Below, in pieces: positions 21,940 to 31,466 of a stretch of DNA of 64,000 nt (the first letter of the stretch is position 1; the number at the start of each line of letters is the position of its first letter). Location: the IMG/VR virus record IMGVR_UViG_3300037418_001469. One strand, given 5' to 3'. The notes below the pieces were generated by a model, which made no database searches, was not told where the DNA came from, and saw only the letters and a program-made list of their open reading frames with translations. A program made the translations under genes and the position numbers. This stretch comes from a virus.

Positions 21940-22695
21940 ATGAGAATTGGAATTGTATCAGATACCCATTCAAATGAACATGCTTTACGTTCTGTGCTAG
22001 AACATATGAATAGTGTCGGAGTAGATAAGAAAGTTCATTTGGGAGATATAGTTGGTTACGGACCGAGACCCAATGAGACATTGGCACTAACATTGGAACA
22101 TTTTAATTACATAATCAAAGGTAATCATGATTACGCTTGTGAGCGTGAAGAAAACACTTGGGGATTTAACCCTATGGCAAAAGAGGCTATCGAATGGACA
22201 GTAAATAAGCTGTCGAAAGAAGAAATCGAGGTGCTGACTAATCTGCCTTACGCACAGAACATTGGTGATACAATGTTTGTTCATGGTAGCCCATATTCTC
22301 CATTTGACTATATGGTTGACGAGAACGATGCCAAGTTAGCCTTTAGTAATGATGACTTTCAAGTAGCTTTTGTTGGTCACACACATGCTCCGTTTGTATG
22401 GTATGAAAAATCTATTGATAAGCCCGAATTTGAAAATACCTTAGTTCTAAACAATTATGGCATCATTGGTGCTTATGAAGTATTGTTGTCAAATAAAGGA
22501 AGAACAATTATTAATGTTGGCTCTGTAGGACAATCTCGTGATGGAGACAATCGTGCAACTTATGCTATTTATGATACACATCTCAATAGAGTAATCATTT
22601 ACAAAATCCCATATCCAGTTGACAGAGTAGTTGGACAAATGCAACGAGCAGGTTTTGATGAAAGACATTATCGAAGACTAATCTTTGGTAGGTAA
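21940..22695 (+). CDS. Calcineurin-like metallophosphoesterase
   Basis: SDTHSN, LGDIVGYG, GNHD, HGSP, GHTH, NVGSVG. Confidence 0.9.
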   Translation: MRIGIVSDTHSNEHALRSVLEHMNSVGVDKKVHLGDIVGYGPRPNETLALTLEHFNYIIKGNHDYACEREENTWGFNPMAKEAIEWTVNKLSKEEIEVLTNLPYAQNIGDTMFVHGSPYSPFDYMVDENDAKLAFSNDDFQVAFVGHTHAPFVWYEKSIDKPEFENTLVLNNYGIIGAYEVLLSNKGRTIINVGSVGQSRDGDNRATYAIYDTHLNRVIIYKIPYPVDRVVGQMQRAGFDERHYRRLIFGR

Positions 22696-22712: not shown

Positions 22713-23219
22713 ATGGATTTTAAGACACCAAAGGTGGTATGTGGAGTATGTAACGGAAAAGGTGGATTTAGAAAACTAAAAGATAATTTCCTTGATACAA
22801 ATTGGATTGATTGTGCATACTGTGAAGGATATGGTTTTGTTGATGACACTACCACCGAAGAAGAAGTAACAACACACCTTACATATAACCGATATAAAAC
22901 TAAGTTAGAATCATCATTCAGTATACTAGGAGAATTAAAGGTAGTCACATCAGAATCAGAAAAAACAGATATGTTTGTAAAAATTCTTCCATACAACAGA
23001 AAAAACTGGACTACCTTAATTAAGCACATATTAAAATTCTCGCATCATCACGATAAAATTAAAGTACTTCCTAAGCAAGCGTTTTATCATACAGATGATG
23101 AAACCCACTATATTGATTGGGAATTGCACATTACAATGCATACCCTAGAAGATTTAGATGGACTATTAGAACTAGTTCGCATGTATAATGACACATTAGC
23201 AGTAGGTGGTGGCATATGA
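22713..23219 (+). CDS. Hypothetical protein with CxxCxGxG Zn finger
   Basis: CGVCNGKG/CAYCEGYG. Confidence 0.6.
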   Translation: MDFKTPKVVCGVCNGKGGFRKLKDNFLDTNWIDCAYCEGYGFVDDTTTEEEVTTHLTYNRYKTKLESSFSILGELKVVTSESEKTDMFVKILPYNRKNWTTLIKHILKFSHHHDKIKVLPKQAFYHTDDETHYIDWELHITMHTLEDLDGLLELVRMYNDTLAVGGGI

Positions 23220-23986
23220 AATGTCTAGGATTAACATTCTTAGGAACTGGCAGTGCCTTCTCAAAGAAATTCGGAAATAACAGTGCGGTGGTTACGATAG
23301 GAGATAAGAATTTACTTATTGATTGCGGAAGAACAACACCAAATGATTTAGATAAATCTCAATTCTCATGGTCAGACATTGATGCTATTTTCATCACTCA
23401 TATTCACGGAGACCATGTATTTGGATTGGAAGAGGCAGGATTCATGGGTAGATTCGTTCTCAATAAAAAACCGCATATTATTTTCCCACATAAGAAGATT
23501 AAGCAAGACCTGTGGGAGAAAGTACTCAAAGGAACAATGATGCAAGGAGATTTAGACAGGAACATGACATTCGATGATTATTTTACATATGAAATTGTCG
23601 ATGAGAGAGAGCAATATTTCGAATTTAACGATGTAATGTTTTCTGTATTTTCAACACAACATGTCAAAAATAAAAAATCATATGGCTTAATTATTGGAGA
23701 GTATGATTATATAGTATATACATCAGACACACTTTTTGATAGTGAAATGGTAATTGCTTTCTACCAAGGTGGAGCACAAAAGATATTTCACGACTGTCAA
23801 ATGACAGATTACAAAGGAAAAGTACACGCATCACTAGATGAATTAGCTACATTACCAGAAGAAATTCGAGAGAAGACAGTTATTATGCACTACGGAGATG
23901 ACTTAGATGGCAATTTTACAAGAATTAAAGAATTAAAATTAGGAATAGCGTTGCCAAATATAACTCAAAAATTCGTAGTCAAATAG
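23216..23986 (+). CDS. apyc1: MBL-fold cyclic nucleotide phosphodiesterase, anti-Pycsar Apyc1-like
   Basis: GTGSAFSKK..NNSA, LIDCG, THIHGDH..GLEE, SDT, FHDCQ, HASLDEL, MHYGD match Apyc1 as I recall it. Confidence 0.75.
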   Translation: MKCLGLTFLGTGSAFSKKFGNNSAVVTIGDKNLLIDCGRTTPNDLDKSQFSWSDIDAIFITHIHGDHVFGLEEAGFMGRFVLNKKPHIIFPHKKIKQDLWEKVLKGTMMQGDLDRNMTFDDYFTYEIVDEREQYFEFNDVMFSVFSTQHVKNKKSYGLIIGEYDYIVYTSDTLFDSEMVIAFYQGGAQKIFHDCQMTDYKGKVHASLDELATLPEEIREKTVIMHYGDDLDGNFTRIKELKLGIALPNITQKFVVK

Positions 23987-25900: not shown

Positions 25901-26126
25901 ACGTAGAAATATCGTCATATTTGACGACATAGAAGGGAATGAGGAATATGAGAAAGTGTGAAAATTGCGGAAACGATAGAGAAGAGTATTTGAATCACTA
26001 CTGCAAGACGTGTTTAGATAAAATGACAGAAAATAACAGTGTAGTAATTCGAAAAGAATTGTGATACAAAATTTATCCTTGACTTTTTAAAGGTCATATG
26101 ATATAATATATTTATAAGATAATGAG

Positions 26127-26309
26127 GTGATTGTTATAAAAGAAGAAATTAGATATGCTTTAGAAAATTTAAAAGATGAAGATAAAATCAAGTCTTTCTT
26201 AGAAAGACAGTCACACGATAGCTTATATTATATATTTACAATGTTAGAATATACAGATGTTGAAACATCTAATCTATGGACAAACACATATAATAGTTTA
26301 TTTAAATAA
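26127..26309 (+). CDS. Hypothetical protein
   Basis: Downstream of promoter 26079; GAGG RBS. Confidence 0.45.
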   Translation: MIVIKEEIRYALENLKDEDKIKSFLERQSHDSLYYIFTMLEYTDVETSNLWTNTYNSLFK

Positions 26310-26314
26310 TATCA

Positions 26315-26381
26315 GAGACACTCACAGCAATCCTACATACAAACAATTCAATTGGTGAATATTAAATGTATATAGTGTCTC
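26315..26381 (+). ncRNA. ACAGCAA-stem RNA unit 1 (Y-RNA-like)
   Basis: GAGACACT-cACAGCAA...AGTGTCTC. Confidence 0.7.
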
Positions 26382-26392
26382 GTTAAACGTAA

Positions 26393-26485
26393 AAGACCCA
26401 AACAGCAAAACAATATAGTGCGATTGGTTCGCAATTTTTCTACTACGAAAATCTAAGAGGTTCAAATCCTCCTATAATGGGTCTT
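26393..26485 (+). ncRNA. ACAGCAA-stem RNA unit 2 with D/anticodon/T-arm-like cargo
   Basis: AAGACCCA-aACAGCAA...GAGG TTCAAAT CCTC...TGGGTCTT. Confidence 0.7.
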
Positions 26486-26505
26486 GTCAAACGTATCTAA
26501 ACGTT

Positions 26506-26610
26506 GGCACATACAGCAATCCACTAACCTATACAGGAAAGTTCTCTACATTATGTAGACTTTAAAGATTGCTCGTGAAGAGCACGAAAAAATTTATCAT
26601 AGCTAGTGCC
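26506..26610 (+). ncRNA. ACAGCAA-stem RNA unit 3
   Basis: GGCAC-atACAGCAA...GTGCC with three internal hairpins. Confidence 0.65.
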
Positions 26611-26669
26611 TAGTAAACTAGAAGTCTATCTCCCCCAAGAGTCCACGTCGACGGGGAGATAAAACGTCC

Positions 26670-26726
26670 AGACATTAACAGCAACACAAAACAAATTTTC
26701 TTTGGATGAAAAATTATAATATGTCT
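26670..26726 (+). ncRNA. ACAGCAA-stem RNA unit 4, abutting the RBS of the TROVE-like gene
   Basis: AGACAT-taACAGCAA...ATGTCT. Confidence 0.65.
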
Positions 26727-26742
26727 AGAAAGGATGATTTAT

Positions 26743-28254
26743 ATGTTAAACCACTTAAAAAATGAAACTAATGTAGCATATACTACTAACGGTGCTAAGG
26801 CACTAAAAACATCTAACTCTTATCTTGTTGATTTCTTCGCATCATCTGGTGCACTGAGAAATCGTTCAAAAGAAGATATTAATCAATTGTTCTCTAAAGC
26901 ATTTGCAGAGGATAAATTATTGGCTATGAAAGCTTTATTCTATACTAGAGACATTCGTGGCGGACAAGGTGAGCGTGAAACATTTAAAACTATTATTAAA
27001 CAATTAGCTTTTACACATCCAGAAGTATTAGCTAGTAATATTAATTTAATTCCCTACTTTGGTCGATATGACGACTTACTAGTTTTGCTAGACACTCCTC
27101 TTGAAAAATTAGCTATGTCTATTATCAGAGCGCAACTACTTGAGGATTTAGATTTAGAGGCTCCTTCGCTATTAGCAAAATGGTTGCCATCTGAAAACGC
27201 ATCTTCTCGTGAAACTAAGCGTTTAGCTAAGAAGGTAGTATATAATTTAGGATTAACTCCTAAGCAATACCGTAAAACATTAACAACACTTCGCAAGAAG
27301 ATTAATATTGTTGAAGGTTTGATGTCAGCAAAGAAATTCAATGAAGTTGAATACGATAAAATTCCTTCTAAAGCAGGTCTGATTTATCGGAATGCATTTT
27401 ACCGAAATGACGGAGAACGATATACTGCATTTGTTGATTCACTTGTAAAGAGCGTGGAAAATAACGACAAAGAAACTAAAATTAATGTTAAGACATTGTT
27501 TCCATATGAGATTATTGGCAAATTCCCAATTACTATGACTACAGCAAATAACCGTCGTCATTATAATGCAGTAGTTGGTCATGCAAGCTCTCAAGATGAA
27601 AAGCTACTAGATGCTATGTGGAAGTCATTACCTGATTTTATTGGAGATAATTTTGATAACGCATTAGCAGTAGTAGATACATCAGGTTCTATGCGTGGAT
27701 TACCTATTCAAGTAGCACTTTCTTTAGGTCTTTACCTTGCCGAAAGAAATAAAGGAATTTTCAATAATCACTTTATTACATTCAGCAAAAAACCTGAATT
27801 ACAAGAAGTGTTAGGTGATACTTTAGGTGATAAGCTAAGAAATATGTCTCAAGCTGATTGGGACATGAATACTGATATTCAGTCTGTATTTAGCCTAATC
27901 CTTAACACTGCAATTAAGAATAATGTTCCGCAAGAAGAGTTACCATCTAAGATTTTCATTATCAGCGATATGGAATTTGATAAATGCGTAGGAAGTGGAA
28001 ACAATAAAACCGTCTTTGGTGAATTGGCTAATGACTTTGCTAAGTTTGGTTATGTTATTCCTGAACTAGTTTTTTGGAATGTTAATGCATTATCTACACA
28101 TTTTCCTGTTAAATACAATGAAACTGGAACTGCCCTTGTATCAGGTTGTTCGCCAACCGTCTTTAAGAATCTACTTGCAGGAAAAGAAATGACACCATAT
28201 GCAATGATGCTAGATGTACTTAATAATGAGCGTTACGATATTGTAATGGCATAA
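26743..28254 (+). CDS. TROVE/Ro60-like RNA-binding protein with C-terminal vWA domain (DUF2828-type)
   Basis: TTNGA, FYTRDIRGGQGER, GRYDDLL, LAKWLPSE, MIDAS VVDTSGSM, IISDMEFD, VFWNV. Confidence 0.85.
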   Translation: MLNHLKNETNVAYTTNGAKALKTSNSYLVDFFASSGALRNRSKEDINQLFSKAFAEDKLLAMKALFYTRDIRGGQGERETFKTIIKQLAFTHPEVLASNINLIPYFGRYDDLLVLLDTPLEKLAMSIIRAQLLEDLDLEAPSLLAKWLPSENASSRETKRLAKKVVYNLGLTPKQYRKTLTTLRKKINIVEGLMSAKKFNEVEYDKIPSKAGLIYRNAFYRNDGERYTAFVDSLVKSVENNDKETKINVKTLFPYEIIGKFPITMTTANNRRHYNAVVGHASSQDEKLLDAMWKSLPDFIGDNFDNALAVVDTSGSMRGLPIQVALSLGLYLAERNKGIFNNHFITFSKKPELQEVLGDTLGDKLRNMSQADWDMNTDIQSVFSLILNTAIKNNVPQEELPSKIFIISDMEFDKCVGSGNNKTVFGELANDFAKFGYVIPELVFWNVNALSTHFPVKYNETGTALVSGCSPTVFKNLLAGKEMTPYAMMLDVLNNERYDIVMA

Positions 28255-28284
28255 TAAATGGAGGGGTAAAACCCTCTTATACGT

Positions 28285-28386
28285 GGAGAGCCTTGGCGGT
28301 GTAGTCCAACGAGACTATTGGTGGTTCGATTCCATCTGAAAACAGTGGCATGCAAATAATAGAGGGTTCGATTCCTTCCTCTCTCA
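28285..28386 (+). ncRNA. tRNA-like RNA with two T-arms
   Basis: GGAGAG/CTCTCT closing stem; GGTGG TTCGATT CCATC and GAGGG TTCGATT CCTTC. Confidence 0.55.
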
Positions 28387-28447
28387 AAAACGTGAATGGC
28401 ATATTTTTCTATATAAGCAGAAGACTAAGACAACACACAAAAATACG

Positions 28448-28562
28448 TAGACACTTACAGCAATCAATCCTACAGGCACTTTAGGTTGGAGGTTAAAATC
28501 CTTCATGACTGAATCAGTCATTAGCTCAAATGTTAGAGCAAAAGTTTTGGATGATGTGTCTA
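28448..28562 (+). ncRNA. ACAGCAA-stem RNA unit 5: circularly permuted tRNA mimic (YrlA-like Y RNA)
   Basis: TAGACAC-ttACAGCAA; T arm, loop-closed acceptor ATGACTG-AAT-CAGTCAT, D arm GCTC...GAGC; GTGTCTA. Confidence 0.8.
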
Positions 28563-28568
28563 GATAAA

Positions 28569-28640
28569 CACTCTATAGTATAACGGTTAGTACATGGCTC
28601 TCATAAGGCTATGGTGGAAGTTCGATTCTTCCTAGAGTGA
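28569..28640 (+). tRNA. tRNA CAU (Met or Ile2)
   Basis: CACTCTA/TAGAGTG acceptor, CTCATAA loop, TTCGATT T-loop. Confidence 0.8.
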
Positions 28641-28642
28641 TA

Positions 28643-28715
28643 TGCGGTGAGGACAAATGGTAAGTCACTAGTCTCATAAGCTAGAGATAGTTGGTTCGAT
28701 TCCAACCACTCGCAA
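28643..28715 (+). tRNA. tRNA-Met(CAU)
   Basis: CTAGT CTCATAA GCTAG; T arm GTTGG TTCGATT CCAAC; bulged acceptor. Confidence 0.75.
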
Positions 28716-28828
28716 TTGTAGGGTTGTAAGAGGTGAAAGTCCTCTACCCTTCACAAAACGTGTTGGTGGCGATTCTTAGGCTACTAGGTTGACAACCTTG
28801 TACGGTATACAGTGCAGAATAGTTGTTC

Positions 28829-28899
28829 GCTCTTATAGTATAATGGTATTACAGTTGACTTGTAATCATCTGATGGCAGTTCGATTCTGTCTAGGAGCA
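28829..28899 (+). tRNA. tRNA-Thr(UGU)
   Basis: Cloverleaf, loop CTTGTAA. Confidence 0.85.
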
Positions 28900-28915
28900 T
28901 CTTCGCCCATACGTA

Positions 28916-29224
28916 TCGTGTGAGTGACAGAGACTATACTACCGTCCGTACCCCCTGTATCGGGTCGATAATTGAAAACGGACAACCGCAATATCCAATA
29001 AGACCTAATCTAAGGCGATACACCTGACATGAGCACAGTAAAGGTTGAGGATAGAGGCAAGCTAGGTTGGTTTTTGGTATGAGCCTAGCATTTCTAATTG
29101 GTGTTGCACTACCTTATCTCAAATGTGCCCTATACAGATAGGAGGTCGTGCTCCTTATAATTAACCTGATAGATGGATGCTCTGCTCCCCATCGGCAAAG
29201 TTGGCAGGCAACGTTAAAACACGA
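28916..29224 (+). ncRNA. Unknown ~310-nt structured RNA
   Basis: TCGTGT/ACACGA closing helix and several internal helices between two tRNAs. Confidence 0.55.
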
Positions 29225-29232
29225 AATATCAA

Positions 29233-29303
29233 TGGGGTGTGGTATAATGGTAACACCTACGGTTTGGGACCGTATGTTGCGAGTTCGATTCTCGCCACTC
29301 CAA
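29233..29303 (+). tRNA. tRNA-Pro(UGG)
   Basis: TACGG TTTGGGA CCGTA. Confidence 0.9.
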
Positions 29304-29347
29304 TAAGTCTTTTATCATCTGTGCTTCACAAAACGTGAGGTGATAAA

Positions 29348-29779
29348 ATGACAAAGAAAATTGAATATGATACAAATGAAAAAGGTTGCATGCTAGTAAC
29401 ATCGCATTACAAGTCTAACACAGGTCATGTGCAGTTAAGAAGAGATGGTAAGGTGCAATGGTTACATAGATATGTTTACGAGCAAGAATTTGGAGAGATT
29501 CCAGAAGGAATGGTTGTAAGACATAAATGTGACAACCCATCGTGTATGAATATTGACCATTTAGAATTAGGAACCCATGTTGATAATGTCAATGATAGAG
29601 TGAAACGTAGAAGGTCTGCAACAGGAACTTCAAATGGTCGCTCTAAATTAACAGAAGAACAAGCTAGGTTTATCAAACACGACAATGAGTACTCTAATGC
29701 AGAGTTATCTAGAATGTTTAATATTAATGCCAAAGTTATTTATGAAATAAAACGAAATTTAAAATGGAAACATGTATAA
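29348..29779 (+). CDS. HNH homing endonuclease
   Basis: HRYVYE...VRHKCDNPSCMNIDHLELGTH.DN. Confidence 0.9.
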   Translation: MTKKIEYDTNEKGCMLVTSHYKSNTGHVQLRRDGKVQWLHRYVYEQEFGEIPEGMVVRHKCDNPSCMNIDHLELGTHVDNVNDRVKRRRSATGTSNGRSKLTEEQARFIKHDNEYSNAELSRMFNINAKVIYEIKRNLKWKHV

Positions 29780-29794
29780 GTGTTTCCTTACTTT

Positions 29795-29868
29795 GGACCC
29801 TTAGTTTAATGGTAAAACTCTTGGCTCATAACCGAGGTTCGCTAGTTCGATTCTAGCAGGGTCCACCA
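29795..29868 (+). tRNA. tRNA-Ile2(CAU), encoded CCA
   Basis: GGACCCT/AGGGTCC-ACCA acceptor like Bacillus Ile2; CTCATAA loop. Confidence 0.85.
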
Positions 29869-29879
29869 AATATTATCAT

Positions 29880-29939
29880 GTCGGGTAGGTCAAACGATAC
29901 TAGTCACTCGTGAGGTGAGATTCCTCCCACTCGGCTCCA
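29880..29939 (+). ncRNA. Truncated tRNA-like RNA ending in CCA
   Basis: GTCGGGT/ACTCGGC-TCCA acceptor, GAGG TGAGATT CCTC T-like arm, no anticodon arm. Confidence 0.5.
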
Positions 29940-29945
29940 AATTAT

Positions 29946-30016
29946 GTGGAATTAGTATAGCGGTAATACATGTGCTTGCCAAGCATAAATCACGAGTTCG
30001 ACCCTCGTATTCCACA
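29946..30016 (+). tRNA. tRNA-Gly(GCC)
   Basis: Loop TTGCCAA, cloverleaf. Confidence 0.85.
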
Positions 30017-30025
30017 TCTTATTTT

Positions 30026-30097
30026 GCCCTCTTAATGTAAAGGATAACATGTGTGGTTTCTACCCACGAAATAGGGGTTCGACTCCTCTAGAGGGTG
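30026..30097 (+). tRNA. tRNA-Arg(UCU)
   Basis: TGTGG TTTCTAC CCACG. Confidence 0.85.
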
Positions 30098-30102
30098 TTT
30101 AT

Positions 30103-30194
30103 GGAGTGTTGGGTGAGTGGCTAAAACCATCAGTTTGCTAAACTGACGAGGGACAGAAATGCGACCTCCATCCGTTCGAATCGGATACGCTCCT
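30103..30194 (+). tRNA. tRNA-Ser(GCU)
   Basis: TCAGT TTGCTAA ACTGA; long variable arm. Confidence 0.9.
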
Positions 30195-30203
30195 TATCCA
30201 TAT

Positions 30204-30274
30204 GTGGTGTTAGTATAGTGGCAATACTCCTGTCTTCCAAACAGGCATCATCAGTTCAAATCTGATACACCACA
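30204..30274 (+). tRNA. tRNA-Gly(UCC)
   Basis: CCTGT CTTCCAA ACAGG. Confidence 0.9.
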
Positions 30275-30294
30275 CTTTTATTATGTCTAAACGT

Positions 30295-30370
30295 AGGGAA
30301 TTAGCGTATAGTGGTTAACGCCAGTTAGAGTTATCTCTAGAGTAAGAAGGTTCGATTCCTTCATTCCCCA
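30295..30370 (+). ncRNA. tRNA-like RNA with aberrant (4-6 nt) anticodon loop
   Basis: Good D and T arms; TAGAG TTAT CTCTA in place of an anticodon arm. Confidence 0.55.
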
Positions 30371-30378
30371 AAAACGTT

Positions 30379-30461
30379 ACGGTCAAGGTTTTATGCCTAC
30401 CTACTTAGTATTCTAGAAAAACTTTGCAAGGTGGTCGAAGGGTTCGATTCCTTTCAACCGT
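30379..30461 (+). ncRNA. T-arm RNA family B, copy 1
   Basis: TCAAGGTTTT.TGCCT...TATTCTAGA.AAACTTT...GGTCG.AGG(G)TTCGATTCCT. Confidence 0.6.
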
Positions 30462-30547
30462 TAAAACGTGAGTTATCTGAGGTGTCCATAAATCCTCACT
30501 CAGTCGGTAATTCTGTTGATGTAAGTCCAACAGAGGTTGCGACAAAC

Positions 30548-30634
30548 GTGCGTTCAAGGTTTTTGCCTGTCTTATTGGACTTATTCTAGATAAACTTTAA
30601 GATGGTCGGTAGGTTCGATTCCTACCAATCGTAC
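30548..30634 (+). ncRNA. T-arm RNA family B, copy 2
   Basis: Paralog of 30379-30461. Confidence 0.6.
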
Positions 30635-30796
30635 AAACGTGCAGAAAGTGTCACATATCTTTAAGGCATATTGCCACTAAGCCCATTAGTAGATATGTAT
30701 GGGAGACACTTAGCATCAACACACCAGTATACACAGCTTAGTCATAGCAACTGCCTTTACAGAATTTAAAAATATATTCTAAAGGAGAATGATAAA

Positions 30797-31084
30797 ATGT
30801 CTTATCCAATTATCTATGAAAAAACTATAGGAAGTCGCCCAACGGCAGTTCCATATCCTAATGATACTGTTGGACAAACAAATGCTATGAAACAAGCAGA
30901 AGATATTGCAAAAAAAGAGTTATTTGATTTATTGATTAACGAGGCTTTTACAGGTAGTAATAAGTTCGCAACCGATGTAACTTTAACAACTGAAATAGTT
31001 ACTGACCTAAATGGAAATAAAACTGTTAAATCTATTGCACAATCAAAAATCTTCAAACGAACAGACATTGTATATCCTGTTTAA
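30797..31084 (+). CDS. Hypothetical protein
   Basis: AAAGGAG RBS. Confidence 0.6.
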   Translation: MSYPIIYEKTIGSRPTAVPYPNDTVGQTNAMKQAEDIAKKELFDLLINEAFTGSNKFATDVTLTTEIVTDLNGNKTVKSIAQSKIFKRTDIVYPV

Positions 31085-31179
31085 TTAAATAAGGAGAAAG
31101 ATTCGTCTTTCTTCTAACGTGCATGGTTCACACAATCTCATTTTATCGTACCTCCGTGGGAGATTATTCTCCCTCTTAT

Positions 31180-31253
31180 GCGAGTTTAGTTTAAAGGCAG
31201 AACTAAGGTCTCCAAAACCTTCGGTAGGGGTTCGACTCCTCTAACTCGTGCCA
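31180..31253 (+). tRNA. tRNA-Trp(CCA), encoded CCA
   Basis: AAGGT CTCCAAA ACCTT. Confidence 0.9.
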
Positions 31254-31466
31254 ACGTGATTAACATAATACCAACTCCTTTTTTTACTAGGCTTAATTGC
31301 CTAGTATTTTTTTTGAATTTTTTTCTAGTTTGTCCTTGACTTTACCCTATTCTACCATTTATAATACAATTATAAGATAAAACGTAACCCAAATAACTCC
31401 TGATAAACAAGAGGACACACAGCCATGAGGCAGGACGTTTTATCAATAACGTAGGAGGTTGGTAGA

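What the first reader, a model, noticed from the sequence alone, without database searches (positions are those of the whole stretch)
26315..28562. TROVE/Ro60-like vWA gene flanked by an array of five modular ACAGCAA-stem RNAs
Seen: five non-coding units (26315-26381, 26393-26485, 26506-26610, 26670-26726, 28448-28562) share one architecture. Each has a 5-8 bp closing helix whose sequence varies with compensatory changes (GAGACACT/AGTGTCTC, AAGACCCA/TGGGTCTT, GGCAC/GTGCC, AGACAT/ATGTCT, TAGACAC/GTGTCTA). The helix is followed by an invariant unpaired ACAGCAA and then an unrelated structured cargo. Four units precede the DUF2828-type TROVE-vWA gene and one follows it. Established: Ro60/Rsr binds Y RNAs, which are encoded next to it and combine a constant Ro-binding stem with a variable effector module. 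Inference: this is a non-canonical Ro/Y-RNA system with a different handle (ACAGCAA rather than the bulged-C Y stem) and a repertoire of interchangeable cargos. The cargos could be tRNA decoys for host anticodon nucleases or tethers for nucleases/repair enzymes. Unit 4 abuts the RBS, so it may also autoregulate the gene.
Basis: partly seen in the sequence, partly recalled or inferred. Interest (0 to 1): 0.93.

Follow-up and report, generated by a model that had tools for sequence, protein, structure and literature searches.

The report
Phage Ro60-like protein with handle RNAs
A large phage encodes a ring protein that folds like the RNA-binding autoantigen Ro60, flanked by five small RNAs sharing one conserved "handle"; this pairing recurs in hundreds of phages and gut bacteria, matches no catalogued RNA family, and is probably a new kind of Y-RNA-like particle.

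Summary
Five non-coding units at the stated coordinates each have a closing helix followed by ACAGCAA and a variable cargo.

- **Protein.** The gene between them (DUF2828/DUF7788) has no sequence match to Ro60. Its model nevertheless aligns over its full length to Ro60 (Z 23.2, 410 residues).
- **Conservation.** The same handle lies on the gene strand beside homologous genes in phages of Bacillus, Listeria, Enterococcus, Staphylococcus, Mycobacterium, Citrobacter/E. coli and Campylobacter. It is also found in 72 of 80 bacterial loci.
- **Specificity.** A covariance model built from the handle hits whole phage genomes only next to this gene.
- **Cargos.** Unit 5 is a divergent YrlA-type permuted tRNA mimic. 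Unit 2 encloses a normal-order tRNA-like cloverleaf.
- **Motif.** ACAGCAA replaces the canonical GNCGAA Ro-binding motif and matches the core of the Dictyostelium Class I RNA motif.
- **Prior work.** A preprint shows that the Bas63 homolog (gp130) counters the Ppl defence. The RNA family itself seems undescribed.
- **Gap.** Binding of the RNAs by the protein is inferred, not shown.

This scan has already noted the same system on other DNA (109 notes in at least 105 genomes), so this window is one more instance.

Verdict: a real, new variant of the Ro60/Y-RNA kind.

The parts
26079..26107 (+). Promoter-like site (TTGACT, 17 nt, TATAAT, with TG) that could drive the whole RNA/gene/tRNA island
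   Evidence: Consensus scan, 11 of 12 matches. Prediction only.
26127..26309 (+). Small ORF (60 aa, GTG start) ahead of the units. No family match, so it is uncertain whether it is a gene.
   Evidence: ORF list. No Pfam or PHROG hit.
26315..26381 (+). Unit 1: short handle RNA (8-bp helix, ACAGCAA, small hairpin cargo)
   Evidence: Sequence. R1 39.8 bits, E 1.9e-7. Orthologs in L001 and L002 show a compensatory change.
26393..26485 (+). Unit 2: handle enclosing a normal-order tRNA-like cloverleaf (26411-26480; D arm, anticodon arm with ACU, T arm)
   Evidence: ARAGORN call. Rfam tRNA 18.1 bits, below the cut-off. R1 28.2 bits. Fold z-score -3.4.
26506..26610 (+). Unit 3: handle with a weakened helix (5 bp + mismatch + 1) and a multi-hairpin cargo
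   Evidence: Sequence. R1 11.1 bits only. The ortholog L002 2849-2962 has an 8-bp helix.
26627..26660 (+). G+C-rich 9-bp hairpin in the spacer between units 3 and 4. It carries no handle.
   Evidence: Fold of 26611-26669.
26670..26726 (+). Unit 4: short handle RNA ending 1-2 nt before the ribosome-binding site of the gene
   Evidence: Sequence. R1 31.9 bits, E 2.1e-5. Same arrangement in L001 2925-2983.
26743..28254 (+). Ro60-like ring protein gene (DUF2828 + DUF7788/vWA with complete MIDAS motif). 503 aa from the ATG at 26743, which has the RBS GAAAGGA 8 nt upstream. An in-frame ATG at 26734 would give 506 aa.
   Evidence: Pfam. PHROG 850. AF2 model with pLDDT 88. Ro60 fold matches. Invariant D312, S314, S316, T377, D409.
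28283..28395 (+). Two T-arm-like hairpins without a handle, between the gene and unit 5
   Evidence: Sequence read directly. No Rfam or R1 hit.
28448..28562 (+). Unit 5: handle plus a permuted tRNA mimic (T arm, capped acceptor-like stem, D arm), a divergent YrlA-type RNA
   Evidence: Rfam YrlA RF02553, 30.3 bits, model 1-114 of 114, below the cut-off of 69. Ortholog L001 4832-4967.
28569..31253 (+). tRNA array on the same strand (ten tRNA genes) interrupted by an HNH endonuclease gene (29348-29779)
   Evidence: ARAGORN and Rfam. Pfam HNH_3.
31285..31306 (+). Terminator-like hairpin with a T run, the likely end of the island's transcript
   Evidence: Consensus scan. Prediction only.

Best explanation
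This is a phage module for a Ro60/Y-RNA-like ribonucleoprotein of a divergent lineage.

**Transcription (inferred).** One transcript probably runs from the promoter at 26079 to the terminator at 31285. It would carry four handle RNAs, the gene, a fifth handle RNA and the tRNAs.

**Release of the RNAs (inferred).** The small RNAs are cut out along with the tRNAs. Each one closes its two ends in a 5-8 bp helix next to an unpaired ACAGCAA.

**Binding (inferred).** The DUF2828 protein is a HEAT-repeat ring with a vWA/MIDAS domain, like Ro60. It would bind this handle at the place where Ro60/Rsr binds the conserved stem of Y RNAs.

**Cargos (inferred).** The variable cargos are a hairpin, a multi-hairpin, a tRNA-like cloverleaf and a permuted tRNA mimic. 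They would give the particle different partners, most likely tRNA-handling or RNA-degrading and repair enzymes, or nucleases that attack tRNAs.

**Role.** The likely biological role is counter-defence and RNA surveillance during infection.

**What is shown.** The RNA family, its conservation and covariation, its tight linkage to the gene, the protein's Ro60 fold, and the tRNA-like cargos. By others: a homolog counters the Ppl defence.

**What is inferred.** Direct binding, processing, and the role of the cargos.
For: **Fold.** The model (pLDDT 88, pTM 0.88) has Ro60 chains as its 12 best Foldseek matches. VIA-align gives Z 23.2, rmsd 3.7 A and 410 residues against Xenopus Ro60, and Z 13-15 against Deinococcus Rsr and Thermus phage Ro60. 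vWA-only matches reach Z 10 at most. The MIDAS residues are invariant.

**Linkage, from the protein side.** Units lie on the gene strand beside homologs in 11 of 11 annotated or close loci spanning phages of five host phyla. In viral loci 49 of 79 hold a unit, and in bacterial loci 72 of 80. Counts are 108 and 191 units on the gene strand, against 3 and 5 on the opposite strand and 4 and 4 in shuffles.

**Linkage, from the RNA side.** 88 viral stretches matching AAGACACNNACAGCAA were examined. 43 have the closing helix, and 16 of these carry the gene in the same stretch; only 1 of the 45 without the helix does. A further 14 of 19 helix-positive contigs hold the gene elsewhere, against 1 of 10 helix-negative ones.

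**Specificity.** In five whole phage genomes every R1 hit with E below 0.01 lies within 3 kb of the gene on its strand.

**Covariation.** All 7 helix pairs show double changes.

**Likeness to Y RNA.** Unit 5 and a mycobacteriophage unit align to YrlA over the full model (30.3 and 39.8 bits). ACAGCAA falls at YrlA's Rsr-binding position. T arms occur in 41 of 96 long units and in 0 of 110 short ones.

**Function.** Bas63 gp130 is a homolog (34% identity, E 4e-87) with units among its tRNA genes. It counters the Ppl defence (bioRxiv 10.1101/2024.10.10.617714).
Against: - No binding or expression data exist for any member.
- Neither the single sequence nor a 51-sequence profile detects Ro60 in the PDB sequences. 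No Pfam TROVE hit was found. The relation therefore rests on fold alone.
- Bas63 gp130 on its own, moved into T7 or expressed from a plasmid, restores plaquing on Ppl cells. The RNAs are thus not needed for that activity.
- 30 of 79 viral loci have no strict unit within 3 kb.
- The one protein shown to bind a Dictyostelium Class I RNA directly, which carries the same motif, is an RRM protein and not a Ro-like one (PMC7919456).
- Units 3 and 4 have weak helices. Unit 4 folds no better than shuffles.
Confidence: 0.65

Rival explanations
1. The handle RNAs are real but are bound or processed by another factor, either a host or phage RNA-binding protein or a processing nuclease of the tRNA operon. 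On this view they sit beside the DUF2828 gene only because both belong to the same tRNA-centred operon.
For: Units lie between tRNA genes up to 3 kb from the gene. AAACGT follows many units in this phage and is clustered in the island, with 14 copies on the + strand in 5 kb; this suggests a processing signal. The known direct binder of the Dictyostelium Class I RNA is an RRM protein. gp130 works without the RNAs in T7.
Against: The linkage holds in genomes with no tRNA genes near the gene (mycobacteriophage L007) or only one, over 2 kb away (Staphylococcus phage L008). It also holds from the RNA side across unrelated contigs. tRNA arrays are far commoner in phages than this handle.
Confidence: 0.15
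2. The units are cis-acting leader elements that control translation or stability of the DUF2828 mRNA (autoregulation), not free RNAs.
For: 301 of 331 units are upstream of the gene. The nearest one ends 10-60 nt before the start codon in 66 of 123 loci. Unit 4 ends next to the ribosome-binding site.
Against: There are several units per locus, with different cargos. Some lie downstream or between tRNAs. tRNA-like cargos make no sense for a leader. This reading may hold for the last upstream unit alone, and it is compatible with the main explanation.
Confidence: 0.08
3. This is simply the known Rsr/YrlA system, already described for bacteria and mycobacteriophages, seen in a diverged phage.
For: Unit 5 matches RF02553 over the full model. 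The protein has the Ro60 fold. Some GenBank records already call homologs 'Ro-like RNA binding protein'.
Against: Scores are far below the family cut-off (30.3 against 69). Four of the five units match no Rfam family at E up to 10. The defining GNCGAAN0-1G motif (PMC4201824) is replaced by ACAGCAA. The protein matches DUF2828 and not TROVE.
Confidence: 0.07

Closest known systems
Ro60/Rsr with Y RNAs: bacterial and phage YrlA/YrlB/Yrn1 (Chen et al. 2014, PMC4201824; Rfam RF02553) and Thermus phage phiLo Ro60 with Yrl1/Yrl2 (Hu et al. 2025, PMC12135203)
   Same: A ring protein with a vWA domain, encoded next to several small RNAs on the same strand. The RNA ends pair in a stem that carries a conserved motif. 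At least one RNA per locus has a permuted tRNA-like domain, alongside shorter hairpin RNAs. The system occurs in phages.
   Different: The protein family is DUF2828/DUF7788, with no sequence-detectable similarity to TROVE. The RNA motif is an unpaired ACAGCAA rather than GNCGAA/CGAA. Some cargos are normal-order tRNA-like cloverleaves joined at the acceptor end. Up to six strict units fall within 3 kb of the gene, often scattered through tRNA arrays.
Dictyostelium Class I RNAs (Rfam RF01414; Kjellin et al. 2021, PMC7919456)
   Same: About 60 nt long. A short covarying stem joins the ends. The conserved motif next to the 5' strand contains ACAGCAA (model consensus CCUUACAGCAA). The rest of the RNA is variable, and a G follows the 3' strand. 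The amoeba model's six best hits in whole phage genomes are the units beside DUF2828 genes.
   Different: All phage matches are below the family cut-off (19.6-24.6 bits against 41.5), and this window's own units give no RF01414 hit. Class I RNAs were reported as unique to dictyostelids. They have their own promoter element, and their known direct binder is an RRM protein. No link to a Ro-like protein has been reported.
Bas63 gp130, a Ro60-like counter of the Ppl defence (PhageMaP preprint, bioRxiv 10.1101/2024.10.10.617714)
   Same: A homolog of the window's protein (34% identity, E 4e-87), also directly upstream of a tRNA array. The authors noted the Ro60 fold and guessed that some of the tRNA genes might be Y RNAs.
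   Different: The preprint does not describe the handle RNAs. Here they are located in the gaps between the Bas63 tRNA genes. The anti-Ppl activity needed only the protein.

Membership tests
Ro60/Rsr (TROVE + vWA) proteins | Helical-repeat ring followed by a vWA domain (overall fold) | tested here: met
   Z 23.2, rmsd 3.7 A, 410 aligned residues against 1yvr/1yvp over model residues 6-483. The 12 best Foldseek matches are all Ro60.
Ro60/Rsr (TROVE + vWA) proteins | Sequence match to the TROVE family or to solved Ro60 proteins | tested here: not met
   Pfam gives only DUF7788, DUF2828 and VWA_2. phmmer and a 51-sequence profile find no Ro60 among the PDB sequences at E up to 10.
Ro60/Rsr (TROVE + vWA) proteins | MIDAS metal-binding motif in the vWA domain | tested here: met
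   D312, S314, S316, T377 and D409 are invariant in 51 homologs.
Ro60/Rsr (TROVE + vWA) proteins | Binds Y RNAs and misfolded RNAs | not testable with these tools
   Needs EMSA or RIP-seq.
Y RNA / YrlA (RF02553) | Encoded within a few kb of the Ro60-like gene on the same strand | tested here: met
   All five units lie within 430 nt of the gene on the + strand. The same holds in related loci.
Y RNA / YrlA (RF02553) | 5' and 3' ends pair in a stem | tested here: met
   Helices of 5-8 bp. 7 of 7 pairs covary across 27 units.
Y RNA / YrlA (RF02553) | Conserved GNCGAAN0-1G (CGAA) motif near the 5' end | tested here: not met
   ACAGCAA occupies that position in the cmscan alignment. The motif definition comes from PMC4201824.
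Y RNA / YrlA (RF02553) | Permuted tRNA-like domain (T arm, acceptor-like stem, D arm) | tested here: met
   Met for unit 5 only (alignment). Units 1, 3 and 4 lack it, and unit 2 is in normal order.
Y RNA / YrlA (RF02553) | Score above the Rfam gathering cut-off | tested here: not met
   30.3 bits against 69.
Dictyostelium Class I RNA (RF01414) | Short closing stem plus an adjacent unpaired conserved motif ending in ACAGCAA | tested here: met
   The model consensus is shown. Unit 5 reads CUUACAGCAA.
Dictyostelium Class I RNA (RF01414) | Score above the Rfam gathering cut-off | tested here: not met
   No hit for the window's units at E up to 10. Relatives in other phages score 19.6-24.6 bits against 41.5.
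Dictyostelium Class I RNA (RF01414) | Length of 42-65 nt | tested here: inconclusive
   Unit 4 (57 nt) fits and unit 1 (67 nt) nearly fits. Units 2, 3 and 5 are 93-115 nt.

The most novel reading that the evidence does not exclude
The helix-plus-ACAGCAA handle is the cognate ligand of DUF2828 proteins. Together they form a second, ancient lineage of Ro/Y-RNA particles, found in phages, bacteria and (from earlier notes of this scan, not tested here) giant viruses. The long-unexplained Class I RNAs of social amoebae would be its eukaryotic branch. In phages the handle would act as a universal adaptor: it loads interchangeable tRNA-like cargos onto one ring protein, which then blunts host defences or repairs RNA damage.
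Probability: 0.35. Interest if true: 0.92.

Novelty: new variant of a known kind. Interest (0 to 1): 0.8.

Why it matters
Ro60 and its Y RNAs are a classic ribonucleoprotein, yet only one handle type is known. A second handle would broaden the concept and give a clean system for asking how Y-RNA cargos programme a Ro ring.

- **Reach.** This handle is tied to a sequence-unrelated Ro-shaped protein found in hundreds of phages, including the well-studied Felix O1-like, Listeria P100-like and staphylococcal phages, and in many gut Clostridia.
- **Mechanism for a known counter-defence.** It would give a mechanistic starting point for gp130 against Ppl.
- **Annotation.** Dozens of intergenic gaps and spurious small ORFs in annotated phage genomes would be explained.
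- **Class I RNAs.** It offers a testable partner for the Dictyostelium Class I RNAs, whose function has been open since 2004.

Tried and rejected
**Steps that gave nothing**
- No whole genome is held for the window.
- The look-up of encoding contigs returned no DNA and no host.
- Sequence searches against PDB chains gave nothing relevant.
- Rfam gave no match for units 1-4.
- The first MAFFT alignment of units of mixed length (A2) put the 3' strands out of register. I replaced it with A3, built from units 57-66 nt long.
- The supplement of Chen 2014 and the 2020 Annual Review are not held. I could therefore not check whether any published YrlA came from a DUF2828 phage.
- The protein atlas returned only DUF2828 clusters. 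Whether Dictyostelium has such a protein is untested.
- The literal 11-nt Class I motif is not in searchable text. I took it from the Rfam model consensus instead.

**Readings considered and rejected**
- Chance: rejected on the strand and shuffle controls.
- A mobile repeat or MITE: the helices covary and the cargos are unrelated.
- Terminators: there are no T runs.
- Real tRNA genes: only unit 2 is tRNA-like, and it scores below the cut-off.
Full report
**What is in the window.**
The + strand from 26079 to 31306 reads as one island. It contains, in order:
- a strong promoter-like site;
- a 60-codon ORF with no family match;
- four non-coding units;
- a 503-codon gene;
- two stray T-arm-like hairpins;
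- a fifth unit;
- an array of tRNA genes interrupted by an HNH endonuclease gene;
- a terminator-like hairpin.

Each unit closes its ends in a helix of 5-8 bp. After one or two bases comes ACAGCAA, and then a cargo unrelated to the others. Unit 3 is the weakest, with 5 bp, a T-T mismatch and one more pair. Unit 4 has 6 bp and ends just before the ribosome-binding site. The likely start codon is the ATG at 26743, which is also the start of the database protein P0001.

**Is it more than chance?**
ACAGCAA occurs 20 times in the window against 9.2 expected. Five copies fall in this non-coding stretch on one strand. I built covariance model R1 from 27 short units of other phages and scored every position of the window with it. 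It finds units 1, 4 and 2 (E 1.9e-7 to 1.9e-4) and nothing else below E 0.1. Unit 3 scores 11 bits. Unit 5, with its long cargo, is missed by R1. It does align to the Rfam YrlA model over all 114 positions (30.3 bits, below the cut-off of 69). Orthologous units in two metagenomic phage contigs, whose proteins are 72-73% identical, keep each helix through compensatory changes.

**The protein.**
Pfam calls it DUF2828 plus DUF7788, with a weak vWA match. PHROGs calls it "RNA-binding protein". Neither the sequence nor a 51-sequence profile finds any solved structure by sequence.

An AlphaFold model built from that alignment is confident (pLDDT 88, pTM 0.88). Its 12 best Foldseek matches are all Ro60: Xenopus, human, Deinococcus Rsr and Thermus phage phiLo. 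VIA-align gives Z 23.2, rmsd 3.7 A and 410 aligned residues against Xenopus Ro60. That is far above the vWA-only matches, which reach Z 10 at most. The MIDAS residues of the vWA domain are invariant. The protein is therefore Ro60-shaped over its whole length, but related at the level of fold only.

**The RNA family elsewhere, starting from the protein.**
tblastn finds homologs in 701 phage records. I fetched nine annotated loci from phages of Bacillus, Enterococcus, Listeria, Mycobacterium, Staphylococcus, Citrobacter, Campylobacter and Vibrio. Every one has units of the same design on the gene strand. They lie upstream, downstream, or in gaps between tRNA genes. The Vibrio case is doubtful because it overlaps the annotated start.

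Several units are annotated as tiny hypothetical ORFs. The consensus is a 7-bp helix of about (A/T)AG(A/G)CNC, two bases, ACAGCAA, the cargo, the 3' strand and then a G.

In two larger unbiased samples anchored on the protein, I counted strict units (exact ACAGCAA plus a helix of 7 bp or more):

| Sample | Loci with a unit | Gene strand | Opposite strand | Shuffled |
|---|---|---|---|---|
| Viral loci | 49 of 79 | 108 | 3 | 4 |
| Bacterial or archaeal genome loci (mostly gut and rumen Clostridia) | 72 of 80 | 191 | 5 | 4 |

Most units are upstream (301 against 22 downstream). The nearest one ends 10-60 nt before the start codon in 66 of 123 loci.

**Starting from the RNA.**
I scanned the viral collection for AAGACACNNACAGCAA, with no condition on the 3' strand, and examined 88 of the stretches it returned.
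- 43 have the closing helix, and 16 of those carry the gene in the same stretch on the same strand.
- Of the 45 without the helix, one carries the gene.
- Searching the whole contigs added 14 of 19 helix-positive records, most of the misses being fragments. Among helix-negative records it added 1 of 10.

In five complete phage genomes, every R1 hit with E below 0.01 lies within 3 kb of the gene on its strand. All seven helix pairs covary. The 100% pairing in that alignment is by construction, because the units were selected for having a helix.

**Cargos.**
Unit lengths are bimodal, at about 50-70 nt and 110-130 nt. A strict T-arm pattern occurs in 0 of 110 short units and 41 of 96 long units. 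It falls either early in the unit (permuted, like YrlA) or late (normal tRNA order). ARAGORN calls nine of the late class tRNAs, several with odd anticodons.

In this window, unit 5 belongs to the first class and unit 2 to the second. Unit 2 has the anticodon ACU and Rfam tRNA scores it at 18 bits. Units 1 and 4 are short hairpins, and unit 3 is a multi-hairpin.

**Comparison with what is known.**
Canonical bacterial and phage Y RNAs carry GNCGAAN0-1G, or CGAA, near the 5' end (PMC4201824; PMC12135203). In the cmscan alignment ACAGCAA sits at exactly that position, so the layout is the same but the motif is different.

The Rfam model RF01414 has the consensus of a 6-bp stem, CCUUACAGCAA, a variable region, the 3' strand and UG. 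It matches staphylococcal phage units over its full length at 22.4 bits. Run over five whole phage genomes, its six best hits are the units beside the DUF2828 genes. All of these are below the family cut-off, and the window's own units give no hit. Class I RNAs were reported as unique to dictyostelids, and their shown direct binder is an RRM protein (PMC7919456).

**Function.**
A preprint found that Bas63 gp130, noted there as Ro60-like and lying upstream of the tRNA genes, counters the Ppl defence. It does so even when expressed alone or moved into T7 (10.1101/2024.10.10.617714). I confirmed that gp130 is a homolog (34% identity, E 4e-87). Handle units sit in the gaps of the Bas63 tRNA array, which the preprint did not describe.

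RNA-repair or phosphoesterase genes lie nearby in several loci, for example RtcB in the Listeria phage. In this window an anti-Pycsar Apyc1 homolog and a metallophosphoesterase lie 3-5 kb upstream. Together these point to a counter-defence or RNA-surveillance role. The gp130 result also shows that the RNAs are not needed for at least one activity.

**Literature and earlier notes.**
Ten full-text searches found no description of this RNA family, nor of DUF2828 with partner RNAs. The scan itself has noted the same system 109 times in at least 105 genomes, and its follow-ups reached the same reading. Those notes are not independent evidence.

**Verdict.**
It is best filed as a new variant of the Ro60/Y-RNA kind. 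Direct binding and the role of the cargos remain to be shown.

Noticed in passing
window 26385-31385, + strand: AAACGT occurs 14 times on the + strand within this 5-kb RNA island, usually 3-10 nt after a unit or RNA-like element. It does not occur at all on the + strand of the first 26 kb of the window. It may be a processing signal specific to this phage lineage, since L001 and L002 have it as well.
   Followed up: partly
window 23216-23986 (+): The ORF matches Pfam Anti-Pycsar Apyc1 (134 bits, cut-off 50). A counter-defence phosphodiesterase would therefore lie about 3 kb upstream of the RNA island. A metallophosphoesterase gene is at 21940-22695.
   Followed up: no
window 28283-28395 (+): Two hairpins with tRNA T-loop sequence (GGTTCGATTCC) lie between the gene and unit 5. 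They have no handle and no full tRNA around them.
   Followed up: no
window 28644-28714 (+): A tRNA found by Rfam (50.6 bits) but not listed by ARAGORN.
   Followed up: no
window 29348-29779 (+): An HNH endonuclease gene sits inside the tRNA array.
   Followed up: no
L006 1470-2021 (Listeria phage LMSP-25): A ROOL RNA match over the full model (88.5 bits, just under the cut-off of 99.1), about 1 kb upstream of the handle units and the DUF2828 gene.
   Followed up: no
L008 4519-4866; L005 2853-2969; L283 2949-3223: GenBank records annotate tiny hypothetical ORFs over handle units or the gaps that hold them (S-CoN_Ph6 CDS0028-0029, VRE9_1 CDS0134, Bas63 0137-0138). These are probably not genes.
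   Followed up: partly
L239 (Promethearchaeota MAG contig SDNL01000006.1): A DUF2828 homolog (44% identity) lies on a contig binned to an Asgard archaeon. I did not check whether this is a virus or a binning artefact.
   Followed up: no
long units in L017, L020, L045, L070: tRNA-like cargos inside handles carry unusual anticodons: AUA, ACA, UUA (which reads a stop codon) and a four-base anticodon.
   Followed up: no
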